From the UHGV virus genome UHGV-0317053: a stretch of DNA of 37,827 nucleotides; one strand, 5' to 3'. How positions within the stretch are numbered: position 1 is the first letter of the stretch; the number at the start of each line of letters is the position of its first letter. Source of the DNA: a virus. The position numbers and the translations under genes are program-made. Positions 2,475 through 34,620 of this stretch are shown here, one piece after another. Under the pieces are notes generated by a model that was given only the letters and a program-made list of their open reading frames with translations, was not told the origin of the DNA and searched no databases.

Positions 2475-3632
2475 ATGCTCACCGTTAAGCAGATTGAAGC
2501 AGCAAAGCCGAAAGAAAAACCATACCGCCTACTCGATGGTAATGGCCTGTACCTTTATGTCCCTGTATCAGGGAAAAAGGTATGGCAGCTTCGCTACAAG
2601 ATTGACGGTAAGGAGAAAATCCTGACTGTCGGAAAATATCCGCTTATGACTTTGCAGGAGGCAAGGGATAAAGCATGGACTGCGAGGAAAGACATCTCGG
2701 TTGGCATCGATCCGGTAAAGGCGAAAAAGGCTTCGTCTAACAACAATTCCTTTAGTGCAATTTACAAGGAATGGTACGAACACAAGAAGCAAGTCTGGTC
2801 AGTAGGGTATGCGACTGAACTTGCAAAAATGTTTGATGACGACATTATACCCATCATCGGCGGCCTTGAAATTCAGGATATTGAGCCGATGCAACTGCTG
2901 GAAGTAATCCGCAGATTTGAAGATCGCGGTGCAATGGAGCGAGCCAACAAAGCACGAAGAAGATGCGGCGAGGTTTTTCGTTACGCTATTGTCACTGGTA
3001 GGGCTAAATATAACCCGGCACCTGACCTTGCTGACGCCATGAAGGGATACCGCAAGAAGAACTTCCCGTTTCTTCCTGCAGACCAGATCCCGGCATTCAA
3101 CAAAGCACTGGCAACATTTTCAGGAAGTATCGTATCGCTCATTGCGACCAAAGTTTTACGCTACACTGCCCTAAGAACGAAAGAGCTTCGTTCCATGCTA
3201 TGGAAGAACGTCGATTTTGAAAACAGGATTATCACCATCGACGCCAGTGTGATGAAAGGACGCAAAATTCATGTGGTCCCGATGTCAGACCAGGTGGTTG
3301 AACTTCTCACTACGCTAAGCTCAATCACCAAACCAGTATCAGAGTTTGTTTTTGCCGGGCGCAACGATAAGAAGAAGCCAATCTGCGAGAACGCGGTATT
3401 GCTTGTGATCAAACAAATCGGCTATGAGGGTCTGGAAAGCGGTCACGGATTCAGGCATGAATTCAGCACAATTATGAACGAGCACGAATGGCCTGCCGAC
3501 GCCATTGAAGTGCAACTGGCACATGCCAACGGCGGTTCTGTGCGTGGAATTTACAACCATGCTCAGTATCTCGATAAGCGCAGAGAAATGATGCAGTGGT
3601 GGGCAGACTGGCTTGATGAAAAGGCATCATAG
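2475..3632 (+). CDS. intS: P4-family tyrosine integrase
   Basis: N-terminus MLTVKQIEAAKPKEKPYRLLDGNGLYLYV typical of P4-type integrases; C-terminal HGFRH box and catalytic Tyr region; directly 3' of the tRNA. ATG at 2475 chosen (385 aa); ORF-track start 2439 is an upstream in-frame extension. Confidence 0.9.
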   Translation: MLTVKQIEAAKPKEKPYRLLDGNGLYLYVPVSGKKVWQLRYKIDGKEKILTVGKYPLMTLQEARDKAWTARKDISVGIDPVKAKKASSNNNSFSAIYKEWYEHKKQVWSVGYATELAKMFDDDIIPIIGGLEIQDIEPMQLLEVIRRFEDRGAMERANKARRRCGEVFRYAIVTGRAKYNPAPDLADAMKGYRKKNFPFLPADQIPAFNKALATFSGSIVSLIATKVLRYTALRTKELRSMLWKNVDFENRIITIDASVMKGRKIHVVPMSDQVVELLTTLSSITKPVSEFVFAGRNDKKKPICENAVLLVIKQIGYEGLESGHGFRHEFSTIMNEHEWPADAIEVQLAHANGGSVRGIYNHAQYLDKRREMMQWWADWLDEKAS

Positions 3633-8759: not shown

Positions 8760-10084
8760 TGCACTGGCACCTTCAGAGGGATCACCGGCACAAAGCCGGG
8801 ATGCGTAATGGCATTACGCCGGATAATGTCCGCATCACGCGCCGCGTTATCAAACCAGGTCGCCGCCAGCACCAGCGCGGGTAAAACCTCATCCGGTGTG
8901 CGCTGAATGATCCGTGCAGACTGTTCAAGGCGCGTGTTGATATCCGCATTCAGATCTGCTTTCACCCGGCGCAGTGCCAGAAACAGCGCATCACTGGTTG
9001 TACGGGACAACTCCTTATCAATTGCCGTATTCAGTGTGTCGCGAATGTCAGTCAGTTCTTCCCACGTCGGCAGGTCAACCGTGTTTTTCACCGCCGGTGC
9101 ATTGTTCAGTGCCGGATGCGTGACGGAAGGCCAGCCAGTGCTCTGCGCAGGTGTTGTTGCCTGCCCCACTGCGGAATTCTGCATCACCGCGGAAGTTGTT
9201 GGCGCAGGCAATCGGGTGACGGCATACGCCGCTTCGCTGATTGCGGTCGTACGAAGGGTGCTGGCAACCACGTTACGCTGCTGCGTCGCCGTGGCGGTAG
9301 TTTTACTGTCCGTTTTCCAGACGCCGCGCGGTTGCAGATCGCTGCCTAGGCTGACACCGGAAAGCGTTTTGATCATGGTGACCAGGTCGCTGGCGTTACC
9401 ATAAAGGCGTTTCCCGGTACGCCACATTTTCTGCACCTGCTCAACGAAATTTTTGCCTGACGATGGTGGCGGCAGAAGTACCGAGATATCCCCCTGCAAC
9501 AGCCTGGCAGCATCCGATACGGCAGAATCCACCACTTTCATCGCATCAGAAACATACCCAAGCATTGTGCTGGCATTACCAACGACGTCGTTCTGCACAA
9601 AATCCGCCACGCCATCGATACTGAAACTGCTGAAGCTGTCACTGATGCAGTCATCCAGTGCAGAACAGGATGACATCAGCGTCTGCGCCGTCGCCGCACC
9701 TGATGTGGGGTAAGAAAGTTCTCCTGCTTCGACAAACTTCAGGTCAAAGCGGACAATACGCCCTTCACTCTTCGATGTGCTGACCCTAACTTCCCCGTCA
9801 ACACAGACTTTCAGCTCACCGTAAGTCGGATGGACAAGCGTGCCGGGACCGGGTTTATTCAGCGCGTCAATCAGGCGATCGCGCTGGTCAAAGCAGTCAT
9901 CTCCCACCACATAAGCTGTGATGGACGGGCGGAAAGTGATTTTCCCCAGGTCTTCGGTATAGGGTTTGTCGCGGTTCGGGTATTCGTGCGTTTCCACACG
10001 ACGACCGGTTCCCGCACTTTCTTCTTCAACCTTAAACGGCACACCGCGAAATGACGCGTCCTGAAGTCTGTCTTTCCACGTCAT
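8756..10084 (-). CDS. DNA circulation protein (Mu gp43-like)
   Basis: N-terminus MTWKDRLQDASFRGVPF typical of family; ATG 10084 has GGAG SD; ORF-track start 10126 would run through a terminator-like hairpin. Confidence 0.65.
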   Translation of the reverse strand: MTWKDRLQDASFRGVPFKVEEESAGTGRRVETHEYPNRDKPYTEDLGKITFRPSITAYVVGDDCFDQRDRLIDALNKPGPGTLVHPTYGELKVCVDGEVRVSTSKSEGRIVRFDLKFVEAGELSYPTSGAATAQTLMSSCSALDDCISDSFSSFSIDGVADFVQNDVVGNASTMLGYVSDAMKVVDSAVSDAARLLQGDISVLLPPPSSGKNFVEQVQKMWRTGKRLYGNASDLVTMIKTLSGVSLGSDLQPRGVWKTDSKTTATATQQRNVVASTLRTTAISEAAYAVTRLPAPTTSAVMQNSAVGQATTPAQSTGWPSVTHPALNNAPAVKNTVDLPTWEELTDIRDTLNTAIDKELSRTTSDALFLALRRVKADLNADINTRLEQSARIIQRTPDEVLPALVLAATWFDNAARDADIIRRNAITHPGFVPVIPLKVPVQ

Positions 10085-31443: not shown

Positions 31444-31782
31444 CTATTTCCCTGAATTTACGACGAAACTGTTCGAGCGGGCTGAAGCACTCATGCTCAT
31501 AGCCTTCACGGAGGTAGATAACCCGTTGTGTTTCCGGCTCCCAACGAATGACTCTGACGGGCACTCCGTAGTGATCTTTGAACCAGCGGTTAACTTGTCG
31601 CAAAGGACTGTCTCCTTCTGCCGGTTGAAATCACCCACAGCCCACTCGGCAAAGCTGTGGGTTACAATTTCCCTGTCACCTGGTACATTTACTGCATAGC
31701 AATACTCCACCTTCGCTTTTCCACCCAGTACAGGAAGCGCAATCAGTTGCGAGCGACGGTAGTGTGTTGTTAAACTGTTCAT
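31444..31782 (-). CDS. hypothetical protein (112 aa)
   Basis: ATG overlaps CII-like stop (ATGA); encloses a 9-bp perfect inverted repeat; coding status uncertain. Confidence 0.35.
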
Positions 31783-32375
31783 GCGTTAGTTTCTCCACAG
31801 TCACGACACGCCACGGCGCCCGGAGCTGCACACTCGCGGGCGTCATTACTTTCTGAAATGCAAAAAATTTTGTAGACCAGTGCTGCATGCTCCTGCAGCT
31901 TCGAAATTGAGAGATACAGCTCGTCGTTAATTGCTGTCTTCTCATGCGGTTCCACCACACCGTCTTCGATTGCCGAACGAATCTGTCTGGAATAACTGCC
32001 AATCTGTTCAATGACTTCCAGCAGGCGCTGGTTAATATCGGCGTTGTCCACATCCTCGACGTCAGGAAGAGACACAAAGACGCCATTTGCAGACTGCGCC
32101 ACAGCGTCAGCAATGAAGTGAGTTCCACCAGCACGTTGCAAAATCATTGCCCATCCCAGCGGGAAAATCTGATCGCCATCGGCACGAAGGCGGTTAAATA
32201 ATGCGTTTTCTGTTACATCCAGCCAGTCAGCTGCTTCAGCGTAACCACCCGGCAACGCTGCGATAGTTTTTCTGACAGCTTTCACGTACCACTCAGGCTG
32301 TTTTTCTACTTTCCAGTGATGCTTACCCACGGTTAGCCTCATCGTTCTGTGGTTTCTGTTAATCGATTTATCCAT
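31779..32375 (-). CDS. CII-like regulatory protein (phage 186 CII / YdaT-type)
   Basis: ATG overlaps cro stop (ATGGATAA); sequence pattern resembles remembered 186 CII family. Confidence 0.5.
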
Positions 32376-32568
32376 TAGATTTTTCATAAAGCTCAGGTTT
32401 AAATGGCAACCGTCCGCAAGTTCTATATGCAGCTTCTGCTGCACGTCCTTTTGGAATTAACTGGCCCGGACGGTTTCGCCACTGATAAACGGCTTCAGTT
32501 GTTATGCCGAAAAAAGCAGCAACTTTCTCAATACTGCCGAAGTAGCTTTCGATATCGTCAGTTGTCAT
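32368..32568 (-). CDS. cro: Cro-like repressor
   Basis: 66 aa HTH protein divergent from cI; GGAGGG SD. Confidence 0.75.
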   Translation of the reverse strand: MTTDDIESYFGSIEKVAAFFGITTEAVYQWRNRPGQLIPKGRAAEAAYRTCGRLPFKPELYEKSNG

Positions 32569-32577
32569 ACGCCCTCC

Positions 32578-32634
32578 AAACTAAGTTTTATTAGATGCTA
32601 ATTACAAATCTATCTTTGGTCAATAAAAACTAAG
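32578..32634. promoter_or_regulatory. cI-cro operator region with repeated AAACTAAG motifs
   Basis: AAACTAAG at 32578..32585 and 32627..32634 flanking the pR hexamers; short palindromes ATTAG-N3-CTAAT and CTAAG-N4-CTTAG. Confidence 0.4.
32595..32623 (-). promoter_or_regulatory. candidate pR promoter
   Basis: minus-strand -35 TTGACC, 17-bp spacer, -10 TAGCAT, upstream of cro. Confidence 0.4.
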
Positions 32635-32665
32635 ATTACTTAGCAATTCAAGAAATGGTGCTCCT

Positions 32666-33292
32666 ATGGAAACGGTTGGTCAGCGTATAAAAGCTCTGAG
32701 AAGAGTTACCGGAACGTCCCAGAAAGAATTGGGTAAATTTTGTGGAGTAAGCGACGTTGCTGTGGGGTACTGGGAGAAAGACATCAATACCCCTGGTGGG
32801 GAGGCACTTTCGAAATTAGCGAAGTTCTTCAATACGTCAATAGACTACATTCTTTATGGTGCTGAGTTTGAAGGCAAACTCGTCACAAACATGCGCAGAG
32901 TTCCTGTAATATCGTGGGTTCAGGCTGGGCAGTTTACTGAGTGCAGGGCAGCAGAAGTGTTTAGTGAAGTGGACAAGTGGGTAGATACATCATTAAAGAT
33001 TGGTGATAACTCATTTGCATTAGAGGTTAAAGGTGACTCCATGACTAACCCTAATGGCCTCCCAACAATACCAGAAGGCGCAACAGTGATTGTAGATCCA
33101 GATGCAGAACCTCGTCATGGAAAAATAGTCATCGCTCGACTTGATGGAACAAACGAAGCTACAGTAAAAAAATTAGTCATCGATGGCCCTCAAAAGTTTT
33201 TAGTGCCATTAAATCCTCGGTATCCCAACATCCCTATCAATGGTAATTGCCTTATCATTGGTGTAGTCAAAGGAGTTCAATACGAACTCTAA
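32666..33292 (+). CDS. cI: CI-like repressor (HTH-XRE N-domain plus S24 LexA-like peptidase C-domain)
   Basis: 208 aa; HTH (SQKELGKFCGVSDVAVGYWE), Ala-Gly cleavage site (QAGQ), Ser/Lys dyad region (GDSM ... KK). Confidence 0.85.
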   Translation: METVGQRIKALRRVTGTSQKELGKFCGVSDVAVGYWEKDINTPGGEALSKLAKFFNTSIDYILYGAEFEGKLVTNMRRVPVISWVQAGQFTECRAAEVFSEVDKWVDTSLKIGDNSFALEVKGDSMTNPNGLPTIPEGATVIVDPDAEPRHGKIVIARLDGTNEATVKKLVIDGPQKFLVPLNPRYPNIPINGNCLIIGVVKGVQYEL

Positions 33293-33305
33293 GACCTCTC
33301 TTCTC

Positions 33306-33373
33306 TAACTAAGGCACCGAACTAAGAAAAGTTTGGTGTTTTCTCTTGCCATAATAACTAAGTTAAGTTAGAT
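33306..33373 (+). promoter_or_regulatory. candidate early-left promoter/operator (pL/OL analog)
   Basis: three AACTAAG copies (33306, 33319, 33355) and -35 TTGCCA / 17 bp / -10 TAGATT (33345..33373) immediately after cI. Confidence 0.35.
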
Positions 33374-33454
33374 TTTATATCAAAGATAACGAACAGGCAG
33401 GACGCCCACGAAGTAGCCGCCTGGGGCATATGAAGTCCAGGATGATTCGTTAGC

Positions 33455-33480
33455 AACAAAAAAGCGCCCTACAGGACGCT
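33455..33480 (-). terminator. intrinsic terminator for minus-strand transcript of orf144
   Basis: 7-bp stem including one G-U pair on the minus-strand RNA, 4-nt loop, T-run; on the plus strand the stem has a C-A mismatch and no T-run. Confidence 0.5.
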
Positions 33481-33539
33481 TAGCTCTTTAACAATCTGGT
33501 CCCCATCAACAAGTAACTGATAACTTGAGGAGATGTGAA

Positions 33540-33746
33540 ATGCACAAAACAGAACCCAAAATCGTCGCGCCTGGCTACACAGATGAGGAAATTTATGAGT
33601 GGATGACAAAGAAGCTGGCAGCTATAAACCAGCTTCGTGAAGTGCTGTCTTATCGACAGGAAACAATAGACTCCTTAAAAAAACTGGATCAGGAAATCAC
33701 GGTTTTATCACAGGATGTTACTTTAGATATTGTGCAGACAAATTAG
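33540..33746 (+). CDS. hypothetical 68-aa protein at the first-gene position of the early-left operon
   Basis: GAGGAG SD 7 nt upstream of ATG 33540; acidic, coiled-coil-like; 3' end overlaps orf144 convergently by 29 bp. Confidence 0.5.
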   Translation: MHKTEPKIVAPGYTDEEIYEWMTKKLAAINQLREVLSYRQETIDSLKKLDQEITVLSQDVTLDIVQTN

Positions 33747-34152
33747 GATCCCATTCATTTTCGTCAAAATCATCAAAGTGATGAATTTGTGATCTCCAGT
33801 CTCGATAATCTAAAAATTTCTGGGCGGTTACGCTTATTTTATCAAGTGTGAGTTCATCCTGAATTGAAAGAAGAAGTTCATCAAATTTCATCTCATTAAT
33901 CTGTTTTGGCATCCAGTGATGCTTCATCAGAATAAGGTGAACCAGAGCCTTTTTCCCATTCAACTGATTATAGGGAGTGCCGAATTTCTTCCGGTGCTCA
34001 TGTAAGACAAGGTCCAAAAGAGTAAGTAATGTTGCCCTTGATTCAACTTTGCTTATTTCGACTGATGACACTACCCCACTGATTTCAATGCCCCGATACT
34101 TTCCAACATTTTCACAGTGGGATTTGTACAGCGTATAGATATTACCGGACAT
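33718..34152 (-). CDS. hypothetical 144-aa protein in AT-rich island (candidate exclusion/defense factor)
   Basis: lone minus-strand gene with AAGGA SD, own terminator; low GC relative to flanks; C-terminal RDWRSQIH (Rx6H-like) motif. Confidence 0.6.
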   Translation of the reverse strand: MSGNIYTLYKSHCENVGKYRGIEISGVVSSVEISKVESRATLLTLLDLVLHEHRKKFGTPYNQLNGKKALVHLILMKHHWMPKQINEMKFDELLLSIQDELTLDKISVTAQKFLDYRDWRSQIHHFDDFDENEWDPNLSAQYLK

Positions 34153-34436
34153 TTCTTTTCCTTTTGCGTTGTTGGGGATAACCAGATTAACCGAATCCTT
34201 GTTGTTGGGGAATAACTAGGTCCACCTCGCCTGATGTGGCTAAAAGCAGGCACATAACAGCTAAGTATTTTCAACCAGAGAGAATCCTTAGCGTTGTGGT
34301 GAATGCGGCTCAGCGCACGCGGGTTAAGGTTGAGGCTGACAGTCGACCTTCTGTGGATACCCACCCGCCTGGTGTGCAACCTTCGCCAGGCACCGGGAGG
34401 CACCCGGCACCACAACTTTATGCTGTGTGTAGTCTT

Positions 34437-34483
34437 GGCGGTACCAGCTTGTACCCTTGCTTCCGGCTGGTACCGTCCTTTTT
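34437..34483 (+). terminator. intrinsic terminator-like hairpin in early-left leader
   Basis: 12-bp GC-rich stem (ggcggtaccagc / gctggtaccgtc) with 17-nt loop, then T5. Confidence 0.5.
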
Positions 34484-34485
34484 AC

Positions 34486-34570
34486 AAAACAGAGAAGAGC
34501 ATCACCGGACGACGGGCTCATAACCCAATCCATCCGGGCGGCAGTCACCGCAGGTGTTCTTCTCTGTTTT
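34486..34570 (+). terminator. second long-range stem with A-tract/T-tract flanks
   Basis: acagagaaga pairs with ttcttctctgt across ~57 nt GC-rich loop, followed by TTTT. Confidence 0.35.
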
Positions 34571-34620
34571 GTGGAGAAACTAACCGACCTTGCAGGGTCG
34601 ATATGATGAGGAGCAGCAAA

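What the first reader, a model, noticed from the sequence alone, without database searches (positions are those of the whole stretch)
33455..34220. cI-adjacent AT-rich island with convergent overlapping ORFs of unknown function
In the slot where lambda carries rexAB and P22 carries sieB, there is a 68-aa acidic ORF on the plus strand (strong SD; first-gene, N-like position, but not Arg-rich) and a 144-aa minus-strand ORF with its own SD, a dedicated minus-strand terminator, and markedly lower GC than the flanks. Their 3' ends overlap by 29 bp. The 144-aa protein has a C-terminal RDWRSQIH (Rx6H-like) motif, which might indicate a HEPN-type RNase. Two direct repeats GTTGTTGGGGA(A)TAAC (34168..34183 and 34201..34216) lie just upstream of its start. 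This is a candidate superinfection-exclusion, abortive-infection or toxin-antitoxin-like module.
Basis: inference. Interest (0 to 1): 0.65.

Follow-up and report, generated by a model that had tools for sequence, protein, structure and literature searches.

The report
Conserved convergent two-gene prophage cassette
Next to the repressor gene, this SfIV-like temperate phage carries a small YdfC-like gene and a 144-aa gene with no known structural relative, placed tail-to-tail and overlapping; the same pair recurs in many enterobacterial prophages, probably as a lysogen-expressed function with a lytic-phase off-switch, and it is not the HEPN RNase toxin first proposed.

Summary
The two ORFs are real: orf68 (33540-33746, +) and orf144 (33718-34152, -), overlapping by 29 bp. 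They lie in a variable cassette slot just downstream of a repressor-controlled PL-like promoter in an SfIV/SfV-like phage.

- **orf68** belongs to the YdfC family of small proteins of unknown function (Qin dicBF operon). It is not N-like.
- **orf144** belongs to the uncharacterised ECs1072 family (NF033230). Its confident model (pLDDT 94) is all-helical and has no relative in PDB or BFVD.
- **HEPN idea:** fails. The RDWRSQIH motif is not conserved in the family, and no HEPN fold or profile match was found.
- **"Module" idea:** strengthened. In 12 of 15 distinct contexts (Escherichia, Shigella, Salmonella, Klebsiella, Serratia, metagenomes; identity down to about 22%) a family member is paired tail-to-tail and overlapping with a YdfC-like gene.
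- **Constant polarity:** wherever the flanks identify the operon (PL, PR or late), the small gene reads with the lytic operon and the large gene reads against it. A P2-like locus has the same layout, but its partner's homology is unproven.

Best reading (about 0.4, inferred): a lysogen-expressed effector, probably for phage exclusion or defence, silenced during lytic growth by convergent transcription and by the small protein. Function is untested, and no promoter or expression data exist for this phage.

The parts
33346..33374 (+). PL-like promoter (TTGCCA-17-TAGATT), overlapped by the operator-like site CTAAGTTAAGTTAG (33358-33371)
   Evidence: Promoter scan. The operator pattern CTAAGnnnnCTTAG clusters only in the cI/cro intergenic region (32581, 32630) and here (33322, 33358).
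33462..33481 (-). Intrinsic terminator for minus-strand transcripts (AAGCGTCCTGTAGGGCGCTT + TTTTTGTT). It is part of the conserved phage backbone, not of the cassette.
   Evidence: Terminator scan. Backbone identity in SfV, SfII and PhiR29_1. The G.U pair on the minus strand becomes a C.A mismatch on the plus strand, and no T-run follows on the plus strand (read).
33483..33494 (+). boxA-like sequence GCTCTTTAACAA in the PL leader
   Evidence: Only exact copy in the window. Identification as rrn-type boxA rests on my own knowledge of the consensus TGCTCTTTAACAA.
33493..33512 (+). Left arm of the imperfect inverted repeat that flanks the cassette. It holds the third copy of CCCCAnCAAC, in the orf68 leader.
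   Evidence: the repeat finder pair I1; motif positions.
33540..33746 (+). orf68: YdfC-family small acidic protein. It is the first ORF of the PL operon in this phage.
   Evidence: phrog_1744 E 6e-35. 39-41% identity to annotated YdfC proteins. The N-terminal motif EPxIxAPGYTxEEIxEW is shared with partners in other loci.
33611..33636 (-). Second terminator-like hairpin for minus-strand transcripts, inside the orf68 coding region and 82 nt past the orf144 stop
33718..33746 (.). 29-bp overlap of the two 3' ends
33718..34152 (-). orf144: ECs1072-family protein, all-alpha, with no detectable structural relative
34168..34216 (-). Leader of orf144 with two direct repeats (GTTAT(T)CCCCAACAAC on the coding strand). 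It is a portable roughly 50-nt module also found in front of an unrelated moron.
   Evidence: Alignment of leaders from the window, L013, L011, PhiR29_1 and L179. PhiR29_1 homology resumes at 34168.

Best explanation
The island is a mobile two-gene cassette with opposed expression logic.

- **In the lysogen:** orf144 (ECs1072 family, soluble, all-helical, no known structural relative) would be the gene expressed. It reads against the silent lytic operon, would start from its own upstream module carrying the direct repeats, and stops at the backbone terminator before reaching PL and cI.
- **On induction:** orf68 (YdfC family) is the first gene behind the repressor-controlled PL promoter, so it is made only when the repressor is lost.
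- **The switch:** PL transcription then runs antisense through all of orf144. Likewise, the orf144 transcript covers all of orf68. The two genes should therefore exclude each other through transcriptional collision and RNA pairing.
- **Proposed roles:** I propose that the small acidic protein also neutralises the ORF144 protein. I propose that ORF144 interferes with phage lytic development, as a superinfection-exclusion or abortive-infection type of defence, and that orf68 gives the resident phage self-immunity.

Shown: the gene families, the anatomy, the cassette nature, and the conservation and polarity of the pair. Inferred: expression timing, any protein-protein interaction, and the defence function.
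For: - **Pair conservation.** A convergent, 3'-overlapping YdfC-like ORF accompanies the family member in:
  - this phage, SfIV and Kati
  - E. albertii L012 and metagenome L013
  - Serratia L016
  - ST64B and Klebsiella phages
  - L179, L180, L182 and L183
  - Sakai Sp4, the family's namesake
  - L188
- **Co-divergence.** The two proteins diverge together (Spearman 0.65).
- **Constant polarity.** In the loci whose flanks identify the operon, the small gene is co-directional with it: PL (window, L012, L179, L183), PR (L180, Sakai) or the late operon between Q and holin (ST64B, Klebsiella, Serratia). The large gene is always antisense. P2-like L186 has the same layout downstream of cox, but its partner's homology is unproven.
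- **Repressor control of orf68.** Operator-like sites overlap the PL promoter.
- **Orphan asymmetry.** YdfC-like genes without the large gene are common (19 of 25 phage records; L007 checked by profile and tblastn). Only one large gene without a convergent ORF was seen (L011). This is the pattern expected if the small protein is harmless and the large one needs an antidote.
- **Exchangeable slot.** The slot holds other cargo in related phages. In L182 a SieB-domain exclusion gene sits directly downstream on the same strand as the large gene.
- **Family member transcribed in a lysogen.** The Sakai member gave a regulated signal in uninduced culture (log2 -2.13 on entry to stationary phase, PMC2241611).
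- **Precedents.** Prophage defence with cognate self-immunity is known: BstA/aba (PMC8585504) and TerI/anti-TerI (10.1101/2025.02.27.640495).
Against: - No experiment exists on either family. YdfC is described as being of unknown function (PMC5069750).
- There is no PADLOC hit and no recognisable catalytic or binding fold.
- No sigma-70-like promoter was found for orf144, so lysogen expression is unproven for this phage. I did not establish whether the Sakai array probe is strand-specific.
- orf68 here is truncated relative to the 85-aa partners and is closer to Qin YdfC, which works without a large partner. It may therefore have an independent role.
- In L185 and L186 the convergent ORF is not demonstrably YdfC-like.
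- No interaction prediction could be run.
Confidence: 0.4

Rival explanations
1. Reverse polarity. The YdfC-like small protein is a lytic-phase host-takeover effector, like its operon neighbours DicB and YdfD. The ECs1072-family protein, together with its antisense transcript, is a lysogen-expressed safety catch that neutralises leaky expression.
For: The pair conservation and polarity are the same as for the main reading. YdfC sits in an operon whose other characterised products, DicF and DicB, inhibit cell division and are toxic (PMC5069750). YdfC-like genes are the more widespread partner.
Against: YdfC-like genes persist without any partner in cryptic prophages such as Qin, which is unexpected for an unguarded toxin. 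The cassette also sits in late operons, which suggests that the small gene only needs some lytic promoter rather than an early-function slot.
Confidence: 0.17
2. orf144 is a lysogenic-conversion or regulatory factor with no role in defence, for example one that modulates host physiology or prophage induction. The convergent small gene serves only to shut it off at induction.
For: It is a soluble all-helical protein with few invariant residues (L50, R54, L64, G66, A69, H72, W134), which fits a binding protein better than an enzyme. The Sakai family member shows a growth-phase-regulated signal. There is no PADLOC hit.
Against: Nothing distinguishes this reading from defence. The cI-adjacent and Q-holin slots are classic positions for exclusion and toxin morons (general knowledge). 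A SieB-domain gene is adjacent in L182.
Confidence: 0.15
3. The juxtaposition has no functional meaning. A moron repeatedly inserted next to a YdfC-like gene, and the overlap is incidental.
For: The slot is a recombination hotspot with sharp boundaries. YdfC-like genes exist alone. One large gene has no partner (L011).
Against: The pair recurs in at least three unrelated operon positions and several phage types, with the same orientation, overlaps of 29-317 bp and co-divergence. That requires movement as a unit.
Confidence: 0.1
4. orf144 is a HEPN-type RNase toxin acting through its C-terminal Rx6H motif, with orf68 as its antitoxin.
For: RDWRSQIH is present in this sequence. The protein is small and helical.
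Confidence: 0.02

Closest known systems
ECs1072 family phage-associated protein (NCBIfam NF033230; phrog_5286)
   Same: orf144 matches over its full length at 157.8 bits against a cutoff of 70. It is identical or nearly identical to SfIV gp36 and WP_000016389. Its DNA is present in 421 of 5426 complete E. coli genomes.
   Different: The family carries a name only and has no known function. The Sakai namesake (ECs_5703) is a distant member sitting in the PR operon rather than PL.
YdfC of the Qin prophage dicBF operon (ydfA-ydfB-ydfC-dicF-dicB-ydfD)
   Same: orf68 is 39-41% identical to annotated YdfC proteins. It lies in the same early-left operon position and is followed by a structured RNA with a DicF-like terminator.
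   Different: Qin-type loci have no ECs1072-family gene or remnant between ydfC and dicF. Here a 435-bp antisense gene fills that gap.
Prophage defence with cognate self-immunity: BstA/aba (Salmonella BTP1) and TerI/anti-TerI (Listeria phi10403S)
   Same: The logic is the same: a lysogen-expressed protein that blocks phage lytic growth, plus an element that spares the resident phage on induction. TerI uses small self-immunity proteins.
   Different: There is no sequence or fold similarity. aba is a DNA element. The convergent overlapping layout and the defence function are respectively unique and unproven here.
Lambda rexAB and P22/lambda sieB (exclusion genes in the immunity region)
   Same: The chromosomal neighbourhood is the same: genes beside cI that are not needed for lytic growth.
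   Different: No homology was found. I saw no long hydrophobic segment in orf144 (by eye, not tested), whereas SieB and RexB are membrane proteins (own knowledge). rexAB are co-transcribed with cI, while orf144 is antisense to PL.
Convergent antisense control in phages (lambda cII/OOP, P22 ant/sar)
   Same: Overlapping convergent transcripts could down-regulate each other.
   Different: Here both transcripts encode conserved proteins. Those examples use a short non-coding RNA. This comparison rests on my own knowledge.

Membership tests
HEPN RNase superfamily | Conserved Rx4-6H catalytic motif | tested here: not met
   RDWRSQIH aligns with LDWRSQIY, CGWASQVH and KDWESMTL in close homologues. 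Those columns are unconserved across 48 sequences.
HEPN RNase superfamily | HEPN helical-bundle fold | tested here: not met
HEPN RNase superfamily | Match to a HEPN profile (Pfam or PADLOC) | tested here: not met
   There were no Pfam or PADLOC hits for orf144. None of the 48 family members hits a HEPN Pfam model.
ECs1072 family (NF033230) | Score above the curated cutoff over the full length | tested here: met
   157.8 bits against a cutoff of 70, residues 4-144 on profile positions 2-142.
YdfC family | Sequence similarity to annotated YdfC over the whole protein | tested here: met
   tblastn gave 39-41% identity over residues 1-66, E 2e-9. phrog_1744 E 6e-35. A profile built from partner sequences finds Qin-type YdfC at E 3.6e-13. 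No Pfam model exists to test.
Type II toxin-antitoxin operon | Co-directional bicistronic operon of antitoxin and toxin | tested here: not met
   The genes are convergent with overlapping 3' ends in every locus examined.
Type II toxin-antitoxin operon | Toxicity of one product relieved by binding of the other | not testable with these tools
   This needs expression and interaction experiments.
Lambda N-type antiterminator | Arg-rich RNA-binding motif in a basic small protein | tested here: not met
   orf68 has a pI of 4.8 and a charge of -4.4, with two Arg residues and no Arg-rich stretch (sequence). Phages sharing the same PL leader carry other first genes.
Known anti-phage defence systems (PADLOC-DB 2.0) | Profile match of either protein | tested here: not met
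   Zero families at E <= 10 for both proteins.
Prophage defence with self-immunity (BstA/aba, TERi type) | Lysogen-expressed protein blocks heterologous phage, and a cognate element relieves the block for the resident phage | not testable with these tools
   Only the architecture is consistent with this.

The most novel reading that the evidence does not exclude
The YdfC-like and ECs1072-like genes form a previously unrecognised, self-contained prophage defence and self-immunity module. Its effector has a fold with no known relative. Its on/off switch is built into convergent, overlapping transcription, so the cassette works wherever it lands downstream of a lytic promoter (PL, PR or the late promoter). 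This would also give the first function to YdfC of E. coli K-12, as an orphan antidote.
Probability: 0.3. Interest if true: 0.75.

Novelty: new variant of a known kind. Interest (0 to 1): 0.55.

Why it matters
- **Abundance.** Both families are common but unstudied. This orf144 allele alone is in about 8% of complete E. coli genomes. Relatives occur in Shigella serotype-converting phages, Salmonella ST64B, Klebsiella prophages and the O157 Sakai prophage Sp4.
- **Testability.** Recognising the genes as a conserved, polarity-fixed pair turns two hypothetical proteins into a testable unit.
- **If it is a defence system with self-immunity.** It would add a new effector fold and a simple cis-encoded switching principle to prophage-mediated immunity. 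It would also suggest a role for the y-gene ydfC.
- **Annotation.** The large gene is unannotated in ST64B and KPP5665-2, and the small gene is unannotated in SfIV and Sakai.

Tried and rejected
- **HEPN or RNase toxin:** rejected on motif conservation, profiles and fold.
- **N-like antiterminator for orf68:** rejected.
- **SfV transcription-termination immunity (Roberts et al. 2007).** I recalled this paper but it is not held in the library. In the SfV record the 'immunity region' label is on orf37, on the PR side, not here, so I dropped the lead.
- **Decayed ECs1072 gene in the Qin ydfC-dicF gap:** no trace.
- **Defence annotation of alternative cargo in the same slot** (SfV orf33, the PhiR29_1 166-aa Zn-ribbon protein, the mEp460 HTH protein, SfII gp36): nothing informative.
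- **Profile search of PDB sequences:** no hit.
- **Foldseek against afdb50:** library unavailable.
- **The search for related loci:** The genome scan with the 4-sequence alignment gave only 3 loci.
- **Promoter for orf144:** none found by the consensus scan or by my own scan.
- **CsrA or Hfq binding to the CA-rich, GGA-containing leader:** considered, but the GGA motifs are not conserved in L179. I make no claim.
- **Literature searches** for ECs1072, YdfC and lambdoid defence hotspots: no functional study of either family.

Full report
**Where the finding sits**

The window is an SfV/SfIV-like temperate phage. Positions 33300-34620 are 99.6-99.8% identical to Escherichia phages Kati, vB_EcoS-569R4 and vB_EcoM-689R6, and 98% identical to Shigella phage SfIV. 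The local gene order is:

| Feature | Coordinates | Evidence |
|---|---|---|
| cII-like gene | 31779-32444, - | |
| cro | 32368-32568, - | PF14549, |
| cI | 32666-33292, + | HTH_3 + Peptidase_S24, |
| Finding (orf68, orf144) | 33455-34220 | see below |
| STnc100-like structured RNA | 34263-34486, + | |
| yfdP, yfdQ and yfdR homologues | from 34621, + | |

A promoter-like site lies at 33346-33374 (+). It is overlapped by an operator-like sequence, CTAAGTTAAGTTAG. Similar sequences occur only there and in the cI/cro intergenic region. I therefore read it as a repressor-controlled PL whose first ORF is orf68.

**Checking the observation**

Both ORFs exist. orf68 runs from ATG 33540 to 33746 with a GAGGAG Shine-Dalgarno sequence. 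orf144 occupies 33718-34152 on the minus strand with an AAGGA Shine-Dalgarno sequence. Their 3' ends overlap by 29 bp. The repeats GTTGTTGGGGATAAC (34168-34182) and GTTGTTGGGGAATAAC (34201-34216) are present.

Three details need correction:
- GC is low (0.34-0.43) only relative to the right flank (0.55-0.58). The cI side is just as AT-rich.
- The minus-strand terminator at 33481..33462 is real, but it belongs to backbone DNA shared with phages that carry other cargo. It is therefore not dedicated to orf144.
- I found no sigma-70-type promoter for orf144.

**What the two proteins are**

orf144 is a full-length member of NCBIfam NF033230, the 'ECs1072 family phage-associated protein' (157.8 bits against a cutoff of 70), and of phrog_5286. 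It has no Pfam or PADLOC match. Its DNA occurs in 421 of 5426 complete E. coli genomes, next to at least three different repressor alleles.

A profile search of 1.84 billion representative proteins found only 76 clusters. Almost all are stand-alone proteins of 145-155 aa. A 48-sequence alignment shows W134 invariant and L50, R54, L64, G66, A69 and H72 nearly invariant.

With that alignment AlphaFold2 gives a confident all-helical model (pLDDT 94.1, pTM 0.88). No structural or sequence relative turned up:
- Foldseek against BFVD: best E of 0.66.
- Profile search of PDB sequences: nothing.

orf68 matches phrog_1744 (E 6e-35). It is 39-41% identical to proteins annotated YdfC in Qin-like phages. 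YdfC is the third small protein of the dicBF operon and has no known function (PMC5069750).

**The HEPN idea fails**

The R and H of RDWRSQIH are replaced even in the closest homologues (LDWRSQIY, CGWASQVH, KDWESMTL), and those columns are unconserved family-wide. No HEPN profile or structure is matched. orf68 is acidic (pI 4.8) and has no Arg-rich motif, so it is not N-like.

**The island is a cassette in a variable slot**

Against SfV, SfII and mEp460, homology stops at 33449-33451 and resumes at 34222. Against PhiR29_1 it stops at 33499 and resumes at 34168. Between these points the relatives carry different genes:

| Phage | Cargo in the slot |
|---|---|
| SfV | orf33 (98 aa, +) |
| mEp460 | HTH protein (122 aa, +) |
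| SfII | 63-aa ORF (-) |
| PhiR29_1 | coiled-coil/Zn-ribbon protein (-) |

None of these has a defence annotation.

**The pair is conserved far beyond this phage**

This is the main new result. The table lists the distinct contexts I examined. In each one the large gene (an ECs1072-family member) reads against the operon named.

| Locus | Large-gene identity to orf144 | Convergent partner (overlap) | Operon context |
|---|---|---|---|
| Window, SfIV, Kati | 100% | orf68, YdfC-like (29 bp) | PL |
| E. albertii L012 | 72% | YdfC-like (64 bp) | PL |
| Metagenome L013 | 52% | YdfC-like (44 bp) | short contig |
| Serratia L016 | 35% | YdfC-like (74 bp) | late, Q to holin |
| Salmonella ST64B group | ~31% | YdfC-like (71-83 bp) | late, Q to holin |
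| L178 | 27% | YdfC-like (53 bp) | not examined |
| Klebsiella prophages | ~30% | YdfC-like (95 bp) | late, Q to holin |
| L179 | ~29-31% | YdfC-like (56 bp) | dicB-like early-left |
| L180/L181 | ~31-35% | YdfC-like (146 bp) | PR, downstream of cro |
| L182/L183 | ~28-31% | YdfC-like by motif (194 bp) | PL |
| Sakai Sp4 (ECs_5703, formerly ECs1072) | profile E 1.8e-15 | YdfC-like, unannotated (317 bp) | PR, between cII-like gene and O |
| L188 | ~22-23% | YdfC-like, uncalled | short contig |
| L185 | ~25% | ORF present, homology unproven (101 bp) | upstream of replication genes, same strand as partner |
| L186/L187 | ~25% | ORF present, homology unproven (101 bp) | P2-like, downstream of cox |
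| L011 | 56% | none | n/a |

- **Tally.** That is 12 of 15 contexts with a recognisable partner, 2 with a convergent ORF of unclear homology, and 1 with none.
- **Partner motif.** The partners share an N-terminal motif, (E/Q/K)P-x-h-x-x-(P/G/D)-(G/D/N)-h-(S/T)-x-(E/Q)(E/Q)-h-x-x-W-(L/M), followed by a helix. This conserved part lies outside the overlap, so these are real genes rather than shadow ORFs.
- **Co-divergence.** Large and small proteins co-diverge (Spearman 0.65 over 36 non-independent pairs).
- **Close relatives.** Of the 179 fetched loci that hold a large gene, 175 also hold a profile-detectable partner. The other four are L011, L019 (cut at the contig end), and L182 and L183 (partner found by its motif).

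**Polarity**

In every locus with an identified partner and informative flanks, the small gene reads with a lytic operon and the large gene reads against it. The operon is PL in the window, L012, L179 and L183, PR in L180 and Sakai, and the late operon between Q and holin in ST64B, Klebsiella and Serratia. The P2-like L186 locus has the same layout downstream of cox, but its partner is not demonstrably YdfC-like.

The reverse situation is common. YdfC-like genes stand without a large partner in 19 of 25 phage records, and the Qin-type locus I checked (L007) holds no large gene or remnant.

**Mechanism (inferred)**

The anatomy suggests mutually exclusive expression. In the lysogen PL is repressed. 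orf144 could then be transcribed from its own upstream module. Its transcript would run through the antisense of orf68 to the hairpin at 33636..33611 or to the backbone terminator at 33481..33462. That terminator is a clean terminator only on the minus strand: a G.U pair there becomes a C.A mismatch on the plus strand, where no T-run follows.

On induction, PL transcripts encode orf68 and read antisense through all of orf144. I propose that orf144 encodes a function useful in the lysogen but harmful to lytic growth, most likely phage exclusion or defence. I propose that orf68 is its antidote.

The orphan asymmetry, the cassette slot, a SieB-domain gene beside the large gene in L182, and a regulated transcript signal for the Sakai member in uninduced culture (PMC2241611) are all consistent with this reading. 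None of them is proof. BstA/aba (PMC8585504) and TerI/anti-TerI are precedents for the logic, not relatives.

I give this reading about 0.4. The rivals are:

| Rival | Confidence |
|---|---|
| Small protein is the effector and the large one its guard | 0.17 |
| Non-defence lysogenic-conversion or regulatory role | 0.15 |
| Incidental juxtaposition | 0.10 |
| HEPN toxin | 0.02 |

**Cis elements**

The motif CCCCAnCAAC occurs three times in the whole window: twice in the orf144 leader and once in the orf68 leader. Together these copies form an imperfect inverted repeat around the cassette.

The roughly 50-nt double-repeat leader is conserved in front of orf144 homologues (L012, L013, L011). It is also conserved in front of the unrelated coiled-coil/Zn-ribbon gene of PhiR29_1 and L179. 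It therefore looks like a portable expression or regulatory module. Its function is unknown.

**Novelty and limits**

Both families are catalogued but functionally blank. I found no paper on ECs1072 beyond an array table, and none giving YdfC a native function. I also found no report of the pair.

The paired, polarity-fixed architecture and the absence of any structural relative appear to be new observations. The kind of system (moron, or prophage defence with self-immunity) is known, so I rate it a new variant of a known kind.

The limits are:
- There are no expression, toxicity, interaction or phage-challenge data.
- There is no multimer prediction.
- Synteny was sampled in 15 contexts, not in all 76 clusters.

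Noticed in passing
window 34263-34486 (+): A structured RNA matches Rfam STnc100 (RF02076) at 43.4 bits, just under the gathering score of 47, with E 1e-7. It ends in a DicF-like terminator hairpin (34424-34478). The order ydfC-like gene, untranslated region, small RNA mirrors Qin ydfC-dicF. A 2026 preprint relates STnc100 to the PasD small RNAs.
   Followed up: partly
window 33483-33494 (+): An exact rrn-type boxA sequence, GCTCTTTAACAA, lies in the PL leader directly after the 33462-33481 hairpin. It is the only exact copy in the window. This suggests Nus-factor-dependent antitermination, but no N-like protein is evident. The element is conserved in L012 and L013.
   Followed up: partly
window 33462-33481: This hairpin is an efficient intrinsic terminator only for minus-strand transcripts: it has a G.U pair and a T-run there, but a C.A mismatch and no T-run on the plus strand. 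It sits in backbone DNA shared by phages with different cargo. It probably shields PL and cI from antisense transcription coming from whatever moron occupies the slot.
   Followed up: partly
L097 2747-2756; L098 2747-2756; L016 4391-4400: In the ST64B, Klebsiella and Serratia versions, both proteins read the tripeptide W-D-P from the same palindromic decamer TGGGATCCCA on opposite strands. This includes the family's only invariant residue, W134. In the window, orf68 stops at a TAG immediately before GGATCC.
   Followed up: partly
L004 (PhiR29_1) about 2633-3130 (-); L179 3778-4278 (+): An unrelated protein of about 166 aa, with a coiled coil and a C-terminal Zn-ribbon, occupies the same slot in PhiR29_1 and lies next to the pair in L179. 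In both places it is preceded by the same double-repeat leader as orf144. It has no Pfam or PADLOC assignment.
   Followed up: partly
L184 (E. coli O157:H7 Sakai, Sp4) 9168-9677 (+); L097 2345-2779 (+); L098 2345-2791 (+): Annotation gaps exist in public records. The YdfC-like partner of ECs_5703 is not annotated in Sakai, and the ECs1072-family genes of ST64B and Klebsiella phage KPP5665-2 are not annotated. orf68 is also missing from the SfIV record.
   Followed up: yes
L182 3806-4321 (+): A SieB-domain (PF14163) superinfection-exclusion gene lies directly downstream of the ECs1072-family gene on the same strand, between it and cI.
   Followed up: no
window 32581-32643 and 33322-33371: Operator-like half-palindromes CTAAGnnnnCTTAG cluster in the cI/cro intergenic region (2 sites) and at PL (2 sites).
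   Followed up: no
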